28,981 nt of DNA, taken from positions 1-28,981 of the forward strand of contig CAVNZM010000048.1 in assembly GCA_963693365.1 (NCBI GenBank), in the 5' to 3' direction. The notes under the pieces are model-generated. The model was not told the DNA's origin and made no database searches. It saw only the letters and a program-made list of their open reading frames with translations. The DNA is from Amoebidium appalachense. Taxonomy: Eukaryota > Protista > Ichthyosporea. The position numbers and the translations under genes were made by a program. This document shows, in pieces, positions 16,048-28,981 of this stretch (position 1 is its first letter; every line of letters begins with the position of its first letter).

Positions 16048-16215
16048 ATCGGAATTCGGATCCTGATTCTGGGGCCGATTCTATCCAATGAAAAAGCGCA
16101 TCCAATGGGAAATTAGCATCTGGAGAGCCACTTGCCGGCCAGCTATCCAATAGCAACGTGTACTCCAAATTCCATCCCAATTCTATCCAATAGGATCGCA
16201 GAAATAACTCATTGG
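16048..16215 (+). promoter_or_regulatory. CCAAT-box cluster (repeat copy 2) upstream of the gene at 16357
   Basis: Four TCCAAT motifs plus ATTGG within 170 bp; also shares TCCAAATTCCATCCCAATTCTATCCAATAGG with 15788-15818. Confidence 0.6.
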
Positions 16216-16356
16216 CCAAAAACACACCAGCCTCACCACCCTGTGTACATAAACAGCCTCCGGCAGCAACATCACACCAACCAACCATGAGCCAGACAGT
16301 CACTGTTGAGGTGCACGCCACAGTCACGTTCACCACACCCCCCAAGCAACAGCACA

Positions 16357-17283
16357 ATGGTCAAGCCAACACTGACACGTCAAAGGGCTGGTCTATCCAC
16401 CGTCAAAAGGACCAGCATCGCCGCGGCAAGCAGTGGCAAAGAAAACACCAACAACAGTGAGGGGGACAAGATGCCGCTGTACAGGGATGTGTTCCTCAAC
16501 GGCGTGGGTAAGGCCACCTTGGGCCTGCCATGGACCAGTACTTCCAACGACGTGCTAGCGGTTCAGGTGTACAACCTGCCCAACATCATCAACATCAACG
16601 GGCAGATGCTGATTGAGTTGGTCCCCAGCACCGCTCCCTGGGACGCCAAGCCCACCATCAGGATCAAGTCGCAGCGCCACCCCGAGCCCTTTGAGGTGGC
16701 CTACGTCGTCGACCTGTGGCCCTACGTCTGCAGCATGGCCAGGGATGTGCTGTGGATGCACAGGGAGCACGAGATGCTCAAGGGGGTTGACGTGGACACC
16801 GTGCCTGTCAAGATCAACAGCAGCCTGTGGTCCAAGCACTCTCCCAACCTGTACGAGGTGCTGGGGGCCGGACCTGTGAGCAAGGCGGACATGGAGGGGG
16901 CACTGGGCGACACCTACTTCAACGTGACGGTGGAGCTCCCCAACCCCACTGGCCGCAACGCCTGCCTCTTCAAGCTGGGCAACAACGCAGCCTCTGTGGA
17001 TGAGTTTGTGGAGTTTATGAACTCCCAGCGTGCCAGGTGCCGTGAGGTGACTGCATGGGTGTCTGCTGCCGCCACCAGTGTCATCTACAACAAGAAGAGC
17101 AACACTGTGCGTACCAAGCTCGTTGCCCGCAAGGTTCAGGTGTTTGATTTAGATGGTCTGATGGAGTTGGTCAGTGATGGTGCGGGTAGTGAGGGGGAGG
17201 GGGGTGATGTAGACATGGGGCAGGCTAAGCGTGCTGGCACGCCCATGCCTGGGGAGGACAAGGCCAAAATGCTCAGGATGTAA
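16357..17283 (+). CDS. 308-aa viral protein, putative OB-fold (T7 gp2.5-like) ssDNA-binding protein
   Basis: Strong coding bias, ACAATGG start; C-terminal beta pattern SVIYNKK..VRTKLVARKVQVF followed by an acidic/Gly tail; function is inference. Confidence 0.6.
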   Translation: MVKPTLTRQRAGLSTVKRTSIAAASSGKENTNNSEGDKMPLYRDVFLNGVGKATLGLPWTSTSNDVLAVQVYNLPNIININGQMLIELVPSTAPWDAKPTIRIKSQRHPEPFEVAYVVDLWPYVCSMARDVLWMHREHEMLKGVDVDTVPVKINSSLWSKHSPNLYEVLGAGPVSKADMEGALGDTYFNVTVELPNPTGRNACLFKLGNNAASVDEFVEFMNSQRARCREVTAWVSAAATSVIYNKKSNTVRTKLVARKVQVFDLDGLMELVSDGAGSEGEGGDVDMGQAKRAGTPMPGEDKAKMLRM

Positions 17284-17659
17284 TAGGCACATGTCTGTTT
17301 ATTCAGAATCTCTTTACCTCCGGGTGATGCCACGAAATAAACTTCTTCCCAAAAAAAAAAAAAAAACACTGTGTGCCGCCGCGACTGAGTTGACTTGGTA
17401 CGTACATGAGTGAGAGAGTAAATGATTGCGCCAAATACTTTGCGTAACTTATGAGCCAATGAAATCAAGCGAAATTGAATGTTGTAGTTACGTAACAATA
17501 CACTTTTTTCTCCCATGTGCACTCTATCAACTGTCAGCTCTCTCAGTCTCGTCTCGTTTTCGTTCGTTTTTTTGTGACGAAAAAACTTAGAAAAAACTCT
17601 TAAACATTTTTACAATCATCTCTTTTCGCACTTTTAGGTAGCAACACTTAGAAGTTACA

Positions 17660-18370
17660 CCACAAACACACACACACACACACACACACACACACACACA
17701 CACAGACACGTGCACGCATGCATGCACACGTAGAAGGGTGTGGTAGGGTGATTGTTGGTTGCCTTTGGTTTTTATTTTTATTTTTATTTTTTATTTCTTC
17801 GTTAAAATCTTCATAGATTTTCGTTACTCTTTTGGACACACACACACACACACACACACACACACACACACACACACACACACACACACACACACACACA
17901 CACACACACACTGGCACACACACACACACACACACACACACACACACACGTGCACGCATGCATGCACACGTAGAAGGGTGTGGTAGGGTGATTGTTGGTT
18001 GCCTTTGGTTTTTATTTTTATTTTTATTTTTTATTTCTTCGTTAAAATCTTCATAGATTTTCGTTAGTCTTTTGGCACACACACACACACACACACACAC
18101 ACACACACACACACACACACACACACACACACACACACACACACACACACACACACACACACACGTGCACGCATGCATGCACACGTAGAAGGGTGTGGTA
18201 GGGTGATTGTTGGTTGCCTTTGGTTTTTATTTTTATTTTTATTTTTTATTTCTTCGTTAAAATCTTCATAGATTTTCGTTAGTCTTTTGGCACACACACA
18301 CACACACACACACACACACACACACACACACACACACACACACACACACACGTGCAGGCACACGTGTGCA
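17660..18370. repeat. Compound tandem array: three units of about 128 bp separated by (CA)n tracts
   Basis: Unit CACGTGCACGCATGCATGCACACGTAGAAGGG...TCTTTTGG at about 17707, 17947 and 18162. Confidence 0.95.
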
Positions 18371-27025: not shown

Positions 27026-27101
27026 CTTGGTCTTGTTTTTCCCTTTTATTATGGTTGCACATTTTTTCGTACGGAGATGGTAGTAGGCAACTCTCTTGAG
27101 A

Positions 27102-27839
27102 ATGATTGACGACCTTGCACGTATATATTTTACCACCTGCTGTGCCATCATGTGTGTTGCACTCGTGGTGGCGTCCTACGGCACAGCCGTACTCATACCC
27201 GAACTTGCCAAACGTACATGCATGTTTTGGCTCATCATCCTACCCCTCACAGGTGTGGTCATGTGCCAGGCACAATGGGTGGCGTATGCCTGGCTCGACG
27301 TGGACACCCACCCTGACGTGGCCGGCCACTGTGTGATGTGGGCACCCTACTGGCTGGGCTCGTGGCTGTATGTGGCCTCCCCCCTCGCCTACATGCTGGC
27401 AGCAGCGTGCTGGGCCCGATCCATGCGTGTGACGACCACGTTGTTCTTCCCACGGGCCGTGGCGTACATGGTGTGTGCCTCCCTCCTCCCCCTAAGTGCC
27501 CTCTACGGCATGACGTGCGTGTTTGAACCGTCGGTGTTTGGCTACGTGTTTCTTGTGTTGAGGGGCGTGCTGGCGTGTGCCACCCTCGTCTGTGCACGGT
27601 ACATGCTCTCCCTGTCCGTGCCCGTGCTCACCAGGAATATTGTGCTGTGCGTGTGCGTGCATGCAGGCCTTGCACTGGCAGGCATTGTGTTTGACGAGCT
27701 CCACTGGAACTTGTGGGAGTTTGGGTTTTTGGAGAACGGGTTTCTGACCACGTTGGGGTACACACTGCTCGCCTGCTGCCTGCTTGCCCTCTGGTACCTC
27801 ATACTCTACTGCATGGACGTGCTGGGCCCCTACACGTAG
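27102..27839 (+). CDS. 245-aa polytopic membrane protein (about 7 TM helices)
   Basis: Seven hydrophobic stretches of about 20-25 aa with short loops; divergent from the gene at 27025 and convergent with the gene ending at 27842. Confidence 0.75.
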   Translation: MIDDLARIYFTTCCAIMCVALVVASYGTAVLIPELAKRTCMFWLIILPLTGVVMCQAQWVAYAWLDVDTHPDVAGHCVMWAPYWLGSWLYVASPLAYMLAAACWARSMRVTTTLFFPRAVAYMVCASLLPLSALYGMTCVFEPSVFGYVFLVLRGVLACATLVCARYMLSLSVPVLTRNIVLCVCVHAGLALAGIVFDELHWNLWEFGFLENGFLTTLGYTLLACCLLALWYLILYCMDVLGPYT

Positions 27840-27841
27840 TT

Positions 27842-28981
27842 TTAGGGCATGGTCCATTTTGGCCCGTTGTCCCAGTCACCCACATCCACGACGTTGTGGT
27901 CGGGCCCGTACTTACCCTGGTTGTTCTTCCAGGCCTCGAGCTCGGCGGCGTAGTTGTCGTAGTCGGTGGCGGCCCGGCGTGCCTTCCTCTTGCCCATCTT
28001 GCCAATGCCCGTGCCTAGCTTACCTCCGTACCTCTGTGCGAGTTTGCATGCCCCCTTGCCCACGGCAGACACGGCATCGCCGACCACAGGTATGACCCCC
28101 ATCAAGTCCATCACACTCTCCACAATGTCCAACGGGCTTGGTTTGAACGTTTCCTCTTCGACGAAGTCTCTTAGCACGGGCACAAAGTTGATCTCCCTCG
28201 GCCTCACCATAAACCACAGGTCGTTTTCCTGCATGCTCTGTGGCACCTTTCCGTTGGGCATGTGTGCACGTATGGTGTTGAGGTACTGTTTGAGGGCCGA
28301 GCCCACCGGTTCCCATAGCTGGTCCACCTCGTCCCAGGGGTCGGGGGAAACGGCTTCGTTGTAGTTTAGACGTAGCACCCGGCTTGTCACCCTGTACGTG
28401 AGCTCCATTTCCGGGTGGGGTAGTGACCCTTTGGGGCCCGAATACACGCTCTTGTTGGTCCCCCCCAAATCACCGACGGCGCTGACGGTGGTTTCGTATT
28501 GAAACATGACACTGGGAAACTTGTAGTGGACCTTGTGGTCAAGTTTCACGTAGCCCATGCGTGTGGTGGTGTAGTCGTTGGGGCCCCTGTTGGAGAAGTG
28601 CAGGAGGCCCGGCCTGAAGTACCGTGTCTTGGTTGTGCCCGATATGGTCTCTTGCTCCTGTGCCCACACCCTGCTCTTTATCCAGTTTGTGAGAACCTTG
28701 TCGTCGTAGGGGAACTTTCCGCCCCCGGGCAGGTCGGGGTTGTCCTCGTTGATGTGGTCCATGTGCCAGTCGTTGTTGGTGTCGTGCAGGTCCGTGTGGT
28801 CAACCTCTGTGTTGATGATGGGCACGTCGTGCAGGTACTCGGCCTTCTCGACGACGACCTGGTTGAGCTCGTACAGCTGGCTGCTGTCTAGGTTGGCGGT
28901 GAGCTTGCCGGCAATGTGCTGCTGCAGCGGCTCCCCCCGGGGCACGGTGCCCATGACCATGTCGTACGTCATGAACGGTAA
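27842..28981 (-). CDS. C-terminal part of a large putative virion protein with a pre-toxin-TG-like motif
   Basis: Frame is open to the window edge; beta-rich region followed by LDIVESVMDLMGVIPVVGDAVSAVGKG. Confidence 0.7.
   Translation of the reverse strand, partial: LPFMTYDMVMGTVPRGEPLQQHIAGKLTANLDSSQLYELNQVVVEKAEYLHDVPIINTEVDHTDLHDTNNDWHMDHINEDNPDLPGGGKFPYDDKVLTNWIKSRVWAQEQETISGTTKTRYFRPGLLHFSNRGPNDYTTTRMGYVKLDHKVHYKFPSVMFQYETTVSAVGDLGGTNKSVYSGPKGSLPHPEMELTYRVTSRVLRLNYNEAVSPDPWDEVDQLWEPVGSALKQYLNTIRAHMPNGKVPQSMQENDLWFMVRPREINFVPVLRDFVEEETFKPSPLDIVESVMDLMGVIPVVGDAVSAVGKGACKLAQRYGGKLGTGIGKMGKRKARRAATDYDNYAAELEAWKNNQGKYGPDHNVVDVGDWDNGPKWTMP

What the first reader, a model, noticed from the sequence alone, without database searches (positions are those of the whole stretch)
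16048..28981. Endogenous Polinton-like virus with an unusual accessory gene set
Seen: a stand-alone rve integrase among compact uninterrupted ORFs. Known: this integrase type marks Polintons, adintoviruses and some virophages/PLVs. Here it co-occurs with a phage Dam-like MTase, an SSB-like gene, a 7-TM protein, a fibre-motif protein, a glycine-zipper protein and a pre-toxin-TG-like protein, most of which I cannot assign to any family. The ORFs are largely intact, suggesting recent integration. This is the best candidate in the window for an undescribed viral lineage.
Basis: partly seen in the sequence, partly recalled or inferred. Interest (0 to 1): 0.8.

Follow-up and report, generated by a model that had tools for sequence, protein, structure and literature searches.

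The report
Decaying Polinton-type provirus arm in protist
This is likely one arm of a Polinton-type DNA virus integrated in the genome of a likely single-celled eukaryote; related copies exist, this one is already interrupted by a retrotransposon, and it likely belongs to a kind of endogenous virus that has been described before.

Summary
The integrase is real: 439 aa, intact D108-D176-E213, aligning over 300 residues with rve(+chromo) integrases of Polinton type, though it has no chromodomain itself. The phage-type Dam methyltransferase is real. The SSB label has weak support; the fibre and pre-toxin-TG labels have none. 'Largely intact' is overstated: 27% of the span is a nested non-autonomous LTR retroelement (605-bp LTRs, 5-bp TSD, empty sites seen in other copies), Dam is shorter than in other copies, and the glycine-rich ORF is frameshifted. 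Public runs hold roughly ten or more copies in at least two variants. No capsid, ATPase, protease, polymerase, TIR or TSD lies in the window, and no genome was held to extend it, so virus status is inferred. Strong CGC/GCG depletion in flanking retroelements and in the element's core points to an Amoebidium-like host, where about 30-kb Dam-bearing 'adintovirus' insertions are already published. Verdict: most likely a partial, decaying copy of a known kind of endogenous virus, probably of that described group; an undescribed lineage is not excluded (about 20%). Side finds: four GT..AG joints antisense to the integrase in one run, and a methylation-type footprint that differs between core and arm.

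The parts
25109..26428 (-). rve-type DDE integrase of Polinton type, 439 aa, no HHCC finger, no chromodomain, basic C-terminal tail
24454..24840 (-). phage-type Dam N6-adenine methyltransferase (NPP motif), 128 aa, likely truncated at the C-terminus in this copy
   Evidence: match stops at profile position 114 of 169; other copies have 174/192 letters at this place
26450..27025 (-). orphan ORF, 191 aa from the likely start at 27025 (233 aa from 27151), Pro-rich linker and basic tail; fibre-like motif is recalled resemblance only
   Evidence: no match
27102..27839 (+). orphan multi-pass membrane protein, 245 aa, at least 6 hydrophobic segments
   Evidence: no family
27842..28981 (-). orphan ORF of at least 376 aa, frame open at the window end; helical Gly/Val-rich C-terminus; possible virion protein (guess)
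   Evidence: no match; single-sequence model unusable
24289..24397 (-). 5' part (36 codons) of a small ORF interrupted by the LTR element
20625..20784 (-). 3' part (about 52 codons) of the same small ORF, on the other side of the LTR element (inferred)
   Evidence: empty-site loose ends in X12 and X2 fit best at 20750-20779, 25 of 30 letters
20785..24288 (+). nested non-autonomous LTR retroelement, not a viral part: LTRs 20785-21389 and 23684-24288 (605 bp, 99.7%), TG..CA ends, TSD CCATC, purine tract before the 3' LTR, ORFs 21507-22100 and 22091-22726 (the second with a CX2CX4HX4C knuckle), no pol
   Evidence: other flanks and empty sites
19947..20526 (-). small Gly/Ala-rich ORF with a short hydrophobic GxxxG-type stretch; frame changes at the C8 run 20394-20401 (mutation or sequencing error)
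   Evidence: no family
18639..19691 (-). orphan ORF, 350 aa, mostly helical-looking, 2 hydrophobic segments; membership of the element inferred from position
   Evidence: no match
17621..18351 (.). tandem units of 215-240 bp with (CA)n; candidate terminal or spacer repeat, untested
16357..17283 (+). orphan ORF, 308 aa, acidic tail, candidate viral single-strand DNA binding protein; whether it belongs to the same element is untested

Best explanation
The stretch from about 16-19 kb to the window end is likely the left third of an endogenous Polinton/adintovirus-type DNA virus in a likely Amoebidium-like protist; it carries an integrase with an intact catalytic triad and a Dam-type methyltransferase, and this copy has been interrupted by an LTR retroelement. 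Shown: integrase of Polinton type, Dam, several related copies in two or more variants, the LTR insertion with its empty sites, the shorter Dam and the frameshift. Inferred: the integrase joined linear viral DNA ends to the chromosome; capsid, packaging ATPase and protein-primed polymerase lie to the right of the window; the orphan ORFs are accessory or virion genes; the family spread recently by reinsertion or reinfection; the host's CG methylation silences the copies, and long exposure to CGC/GCG methylation eroded those triplets in the core genes; Dam would mark viral DNA against restriction or host silencing. About 0.6 overall that it is one of the already published Amoebidium adintovirus clades.
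For: Integrase: all 9 distant hits of 10 carry PF00665, 5 of them also a chromodomain, and none is a polyprotein-length retroelement gene within the searched length range; profile of 8 of them matches residues 24-321 at 96 bits including the C-terminal stretch, which alone beats 500 of 500 shuffles. Dam. Multi-copy: main contigs over the viral genes have depth 742-1420 in X1 and 140-385 in X12, against 113.5 and 9.4 in the low-copy stretch 14015-14266 of the same runs; a second variant differs at 84 of 725 letters. Host pattern: CG in CGC/GCG context 9 of 199 in Copia, 15 of 126 in DIRS, 44 of 197 in 25490-28981, about half expected; Amoebidium hypermethylates exactly these triplets, has about 30-kb adintovirus insertions with Dam, VLTF3, capsids and PolB, 44 in one genome, some degenerate, and is the only host named for adintovirus-type Dam in a eukaryote-wide survey.
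Against: No capsid, penton, ATPase, protease or polymerase was detected in the 12.9 kb; no TIR or 6-bp TSD was found, and 13500-14970 shows no edge of a ten-copy family. No chromodomain, unlike animal adintovirus integrases. The passages seen of the Amoebidium paper do not list an integrase for its adintoviruses, and its gene map is a picture I could not see. The host is inferred from base patterns only. Contig depth is not a copy number by the tool's own warning, and some runs may be the window's source. The link of 16357-19691 to the integrase block was not tested with reads.
Confidence: 0.78

Rival explanations
1. It is part of another class of integrating DNA virus: a virophage, a Mriyavirus-related PLV (Zoravirus/VC218 type, which often carry rve integrases) or a fragment of a giant-virus insertion.
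For: The SSB-like ORF's nearest language-model clusters are viral, partly Nucleocytoviricota, one with Pox_I3 in 12% of members. RVE is reported in 57-62% of Zora/VC218 genomes (passages). The integrase is only 23-31% identical to the Polinton-type hits.
Against: No VLTF2/3, HUH, D5 or other NCLDV marker matched in Pfam. Published Amoebidium adintoviruses already carry a giant-virus-derived VLTF3, so an NCLDV-like accessory gene fits the best explanation too. Atlas scores are leads only.
Confidence: 0.12
2. It is a capsid-less cut-and-paste transposon with an integrase-like transposase (Ginger2 or GingerRoot type) that has captured foreign genes.
For: No virion gene was seen; the region is a dense nest of transposons; GingerRoot elements reach 12.9 kb and carry gene fragments (passages).
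Against: No YPYY or HHCC/H2C2 motif of Ginger1 (one His, no Cys in the first 85 residues; no H2C2 family at E up to 10); a GPF at 305 is not kept in the closest relative P0001; the match to Polinton-type integrases extends into both flanks, which GingerRoot is reported to lack; at least eight compact ORFs with a phage-type Dam is not a transposon layout (own knowledge). No named Ginger2 sequence was on hand, so the tree test was not run.
Confidence: 0.07
3. The span is a chance stack of unrelated pieces: the SSB-like and 350-aa genes belong to another element or to the host and merely neighbour the integrase block.
For: The (CA)n tandem units at 17621-18351 separate the SSB-like gene from the rest; its upstream DNA is low-copy at 14767-14880; CGC/GCG context differs between 18639-20784 (70 of 104) and 25490-28981 (44 of 197), p=3e-14 with a boundary chosen after looking.
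Against: Empty-site contigs join 24289 directly to about 20780 and run on for about 1.5 kb in X2, tying at least the glycine-rich ORF region to the Dam-integrase block; the motif CTATCCAAT occurs 8 times (0.13 expected), 7 upstream of the SSB-like gene and once upstream of the 350-aa gene. This rival touches only the left boundary and is compatible with a viral core.
Confidence: 0.25

Closest known systems
Amoebidium appalachense endogenous 'adintoviruses' (PMC11244446; passages, section 6 and supplement legends seen, figures not)
   Same: Compact intronless genes, Dam methyltransferase, many insertions in several clades, some degenerate; transposon-rich host with CGC/GCG methylation matching the triplet loss seen here.
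   Different: Their markers (PolB, major and minor capsid, VLTF3) are not in the window; the text seen does not list an integrase, SSB or membrane protein; sequence identity with them could not be tested.
Maverick/Polinton/adintovirus (Polintoviricetes) of animals (PMC8502044, PMC11161782; passages seen)
   Same: Stand-alone rve integrase homologous over about 300 residues to rve+chromo integrases.
   Different: Only 23-31% identity, two insertions in the core, no chromodomain; Dam and orphan accessory genes; longer expected genome.
PLVs with RVE and methyltransferases, e.g. Zoravirus/VC218 (bioRxiv 10.64898/2026.06.19.733378; passages seen)
   Same: RVE integrase plus DNA methyltransferase in a mid-sized genome; NCLDV-like accessory genes.
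   Different: No Mriya48, HUH or capsid evidence here; classification rests on capsid and ATPase, which are missing from the window.
Ginger1/Ginger2/GingerRoot transposons (PMC6839031; passages seen)
   Same: Integrase-like DDE enzyme without reverse transcriptase.
   Different: No YPYY or H2C2 motifs; Polinton-type flanking motifs present; many more ORFs.

Membership tests
Polinton/Maverick/adintovirus (Polintoviricetes) | rve integrase of Polinton type with DDE triad | tested here: met
   family name of the unnamed hits is recalled from their rve+chromo layout
Polinton/Maverick/adintovirus (Polintoviricetes) | C-terminal chromodomain on the integrase (reported for animal adintoviruses, not a universal criterion) | tested here: not met
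   no PF00385 at E up to 10; profile match ends before the chromodomain; P0001 lacks it too
Polinton/Maverick/adintovirus (Polintoviricetes) | protein-primed DNA polymerase B | not testable with these tools
   none in the window; the window ends inside an ORF and no genome is held
Polinton/Maverick/adintovirus (Polintoviricetes) | double jelly-roll major capsid and minor capsid protein | tested here: inconclusive
   only candidate 27842-28981 gave no homolog and a model at pLDDT 33; the rest of the element is outside the window
Polinton/Maverick/adintovirus (Polintoviricetes) | A32-like packaging ATPase and cysteine protease | not testable with these tools
   no match among 15 ORFs scanned; right part missing
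Polinton/Maverick/adintovirus (Polintoviricetes) | terminal inverted repeats (AG..) and 6-bp target site duplication | tested here: inconclusive
Amoebidium adintovirus group | Dam methyltransferase | tested here: met
   described
Amoebidium adintovirus group | VLTF3, PolB, capsids; about 30 kb; sequence identity with published insertions | not testable with these tools
   not in the window; published sequences not in the searched collections
Amoebidium adintovirus group | host with CGC/GCG-biased 5mC | tested here: inconclusive
   strong triplet loss fits but is indirect
Ginger1 transposon | YPYY, H2C2 finger and GPY motifs around the DDE core | tested here: not met
   a GPF at 305 is not conserved in P0001
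Ginger2/GingerRoot transposon | grouping in a DDE phylogeny; short TIRs with TG..CA or TA..TA ends | not tested
   no named reference sequences came from any call; ends not found
LTR retroelement, non-autonomous (nested part 20785-24288) | near-identical LTRs with TG..CA, 5-bp TSD, purine tract, gag-like ORF, empty sites | tested here: met

The most novel reading that the evidence does not exclude
An unnamed lineage of mid-sized integrating DNA viruses of ichthyosporean-like protists: a chromodomain-less integrase clade with a single close relative in 5.8 billion proteins, a poxvirus-I3-like single-strand binding protein taken from giant viruses, a core genome eroded by the host's CGC/GCG methylation while its accessory arm is not, and a host-spliced antisense RNA that runs across the integrase and may restrain it.
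Probability: 0.2. Interest if true: 0.55.

Novelty: new member of a known kind. Interest (0 to 1): 0.3.

Why it matters
If the best explanation holds, this is an ordinary instance of a described phenomenon: protist genomes hold many endogenous Polinton-like viruses, and this one adds an annotation of the accessory arm (integrase, Dam, SSB candidate, four orphans) and a dated example of decay by a young LTR insertion. It would matter more if the full element's capsid falls outside described clades, or if the triplet footprint proves usable as a clock for how long viral genes have lived under a host's methylation, or if the spliced antisense RNA is a real silencing route.

Tried and rejected
Whole genome: none held. 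Related loci: none in IMG/VR for integrase, integrase pair alignment, 379-aa, SSB-like, 350-aa and fibre-like ORFs; Dam gave one 10-residue match, rejected as chance; none in metagenome contigs. Homolog searches blank for the 379-aa ORF (0 of 1968 candidates), the fibre-like region against longer proteins (0 of 37; weak evidence) and the SSB-like ORF. None of 8 window proteins is in the collection by exact sequence. Single-sequence AlphaFold2 models were unusable (pLDDT 33 and 35); a Foldseek run on the second gave no match at E 0.001 and means nothing. PDB sequence hits for integrase alone, SSB-like and 379-aa ORFs were not significant; the NCBIfam aldolase hit at E 0.011 was rejected. Atlas gave no lead for the 379-aa ORF (best 0.80). 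The hairpin at 14419-14491 (z -7.7) and the duplication 14767-14880/16048-16161 were considered as element ends and rejected or left open: they do not show the depth or flank variety of a family edge. No RNA holder listed. Earlier scan findings: nothing shown in 4 look-ups. An integrase tree was not built for want of named Ginger and virophage references. The exons implied by the four joints give no long frame (longest 107 codons from a Met).
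Full report
Setting. The window is eukaryotic and packed with mobile DNA: a Copia element (rve, gag-pre-integrase, RVT_2), a DIRS-like reverse transcriptase and a THAP ORF lie left of the finding, with a solo LTR at 14886-15785 and a TIR element at 4869-13948. No whole genome is held, so the element could not be extended to the right, where the window ends inside an open frame.

Integrase. ORF 25109-26428(-) encodes 439 aa. Pfam sees it only weakly (rve_3 E 0.014), NCBIfam as a DDE enzyme (IS481 E 3e-10, far below cut-off). 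A homolog search returned 10 of 4803 candidates: one close relative (P0001, 45%, E 2e-84) and nine at 26-31% that carry PF00665, five with a chromodomain. None has a name; that this layout marks Maverick/Polinton integrases is recalled and agrees with passages of PMC8502044. D108, D176 and E213 are invariant in the alignment. A profile of eight of the distant hits (P0001 and P0009 left out) matches residues 24-321 at 96 bits, against 1.6 for the window's own Copia integrase and at most 4.9 for 200 shuffles; residues 266-345 alone score 5.9 bits, above all 500 shuffles. There is no HHCC finger and no chromodomain. Ginger1 is defined by YPYY, H2C2 and GPY motifs, and GingerRoot lacks Polinton flanking motifs (PMC6839031, passages), so both fit worse. 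The search covered only proteins of 241-769 residues, so it cannot by itself exclude retroelement polyproteins as relatives.

Other genes. Dam is solid (PF05869 E 2.7e-11, phrog_111 E 4e-19, 257 phage records at about 33%) but the match stops at profile position 114 of 169, and contigs of three runs hold 174 or 192 letters where this copy has 15 or 5 at its 3' end: this copy is likely truncated. The SSB-like ORF has no homolog among 1.84 billion representatives; its language-model neighbours are viral clusters (0.94, 0.91, 0.90) and one at 0.85 with Pox_I3 in 12% of members, a lead only; folding failed. The membrane ORF shows 6 segments above the cut-off. The fibre and pre-toxin-TG labels got no support from Pfam at E up to 10, PHROGs, NCBIfam, phage tblastn, homolog or Atlas searches.

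The copy is not pristine. Two 605-bp direct repeats (20785-21389, 23684-24288; 99.7% alike) with TG..CA ends, a CCATC target duplication and a purine tract enclose two ORFs, the second with a CX2CX4HX4C knuckle, and no pol. This is a young non-autonomous LTR element, 3504 of the finding's 12934 bases. Runs X12 and X2 hold contigs that leave 24289 into sequence fitting best at 20750-20779 (25 of 30 letters, next best 17 on that strand and 20 on the other), i.e. empty sites, and X17 and X2 show the LTR with other flanks. The insertion splits a small ORF, and the glycine-rich ORF changes frame at a C8 run, which may be a read error. So 3 of the 9 candidate element ORFs are broken and 6 look open.

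Copies. 20 of 24 listed runs hold part of 24300-28981, 12 at half of the words or more, from 3 named studies; some may be the window's source. I laid 4 of them on 21400-28981 and 4 (three the same) on 13500-14970. Long contigs over the viral genes have depth 742-1420 in X1, 140-385 in X12 and 19-56 in X2, against 113.5, 9.4 and 2-5 for low-copy DNA left of the element; contigs nearly identical to the window (4 differences in 770) coexist with a variant about 12% apart (84 differences and 14 gaps in 725). Depth is no copy number, but the contrast points to the order of ten copies in two or more variants, with recent spread of at least one.

Ends. In 13500-14970 there are two very high-copy short repeats, a hairpin and low-copy DNA at 14767-14880; nothing shows the edge of a ten-copy family.

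Host. CG dinucleotides in CGC/GCG context number 9 of 199 in Copia, 15 of 126 in the DIRS polymerase region and 44 of 197 in 25490-28981, where about half are expected, but 70 of 104 in 18639-20784 and 91 of 161 in the nested LTR element (the 25490 boundary was picked). Amoebidium appalachense methylates mCGC/GmCG at about 70% against 20% for other CGs and is about half transposons (PMC11244446, section 6). The same paper reports compact hypermethylated 'adintovirus' insertions with VLTF3, Dam, minor and major capsid and PolB, about 30 kb when complete, 44 in the reference genome, four clades across isolates, some degenerate (passages; legends; the gene map figure was not visible, and the supplement text has no occurrence of 'integrase'). 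A survey of eukaryotic Dam genes names this species for adintovirus-related Dam and found no activity on expression in E. coli (bioRxiv 10.64898/2026.05.21.726589, passages; its supplements were not seen). Loss of methylated triplets by deamination is my inference; the host assignment is a likelihood, not a result.

How it likely works. Shown: a catalytically complete integrase of Polinton type next to Dam and orphan genes in a multi-copy family. Inferred from the known biology of Polintons (passages of PMC11161782 and PMC8502044): a linear dsDNA genome with terminal repeats is copied by a protein-primed polymerase, packaged in a jelly-roll capsid and inserted by the integrase; integrated copies are silenced by host methylation and decay, as this one has begun to. 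Methyltransferases are reported in most PLV genomes and may shield viral DNA from restriction (bioRxiv 10.64898/2026.06.19.733378, passages); accessory mosaicism is the rule in this group (bioRxiv 10.64898/2026.10.13.758929, passages), and such insertions are common in protists (PMC10120064, passages). An unusual accessory set is therefore expected and is not by itself a sign of a new lineage.

Against my reading. Not one defining virion or replication gene was seen; no terminus was found; the integrase lacks the chromodomain; the published description seen does not mention an integrase; all relatives are unnamed; the host is inferred. These keep the confidence at 0.78 for a Polinton-type virus and about 0.6 for the published group.

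Side observation. One run, X17, shows four skips that read GT..AG on the + strand across integrase, fibre-like and 379-aa genes; a random skip does so 0.4% of the time. They imply a spliced antisense transcript or a processed copy of one, with no long ORF. The run's kind is a guess and it is a single run.

Verdict. Observation partly confirmed; interpretation partly supported. New member of a known kind, probably a partial and decaying copy of a described group. Interest 0.3; the novel reading (unnamed lineage with an I3-like SSB, a methylation footprint and antisense control) has probability 0.2 and would deserve 0.55.

Noticed in passing
window 25347-25603, 25676-26170, 26288-27252, 27471-27932: Run X17 (kind guessed as DNA by the tool, cover uneven) has contigs that skip four stretches, all readable as GT..AG on the + strand with plausible donors and pyrimidine-rich acceptors; a random skip reads so 0.4% of the time. 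One further X17 skip (25677 to 26178) is not GT..AG. For three of the four the tool marks the letters between as not known. This suggests a spliced transcript antisense to the integrase, without a long ORF. One run only.
   Followed up: partly
window 1-3499, 8145-10400, 25490-28981 against 18639-20784: CGC/GCG triplets are nearly absent from Copia (observed/expected 0.08) and low in DIRS and the element core (0.41) but not in the left arm (1.29). The arm genes have general CpG loss instead (0.48-0.67) and two of them also fall below a codon null (z about -3). One paper search (4 papers listed) showed no title on this footprint; that is no proof of absence.
   Followed up: partly
window 4869-13948: 9.1-kb DNA transposon candidate: 34-bp TIRs starting CAC, 9-bp TSD GACAGGGAA, THAP-domain ORF 12973-13701; it holds a DIRS-like element and a Copia fragment.
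   Followed up: partly
window 14886-15785: 900-bp solo LTR (TG..CA) with TSD GTTCC, very high depth and varied flanks in the runs.
   Followed up: partly
window 14241-14397 and 14490-14700: Two short, very high-copy repeats; the first has many different flanks at 14241.
   Followed up: no
window 14419-14491: Imperfect 35-bp hairpin, -30.2 kcal/mol as DNA, z -7.7; not tied to the virus-like element.
   Followed up: partly
window 1-3865, 11073-12795, 6039-10500: Copia element with gag-pol frame overlap near 746-1137, a partial duplicate at 11431-12795 (97.7%), and a DIRS-like element with C-runs that break its frames.
   Followed up: partly
window 14760-16191 and 19860: CTATCCAAT occurs 8 times, all on the + strand, 0.13 expected; 4 of the 8 are pairs created by the 114-bp duplication. 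Candidate CCAAT-type promoter element shared by the SSB-like and 350-aa genes.
   Followed up: partly
P0001/P0011: Closest integrase relative (45% identity, also without chromodomain, same basic C-terminal ending) lies on unnamed contigs of 5058 and 17803 bases; the longer one could show the gene order of a sister element but could not be fetched.
   Followed up: no
window 16357-17283, 18639-19691, 12973-13701: Three ORFs each carry a GKEN word in a low-complexity end, resembling a KEN-box degron (recalled motif, untested).
   Followed up: no
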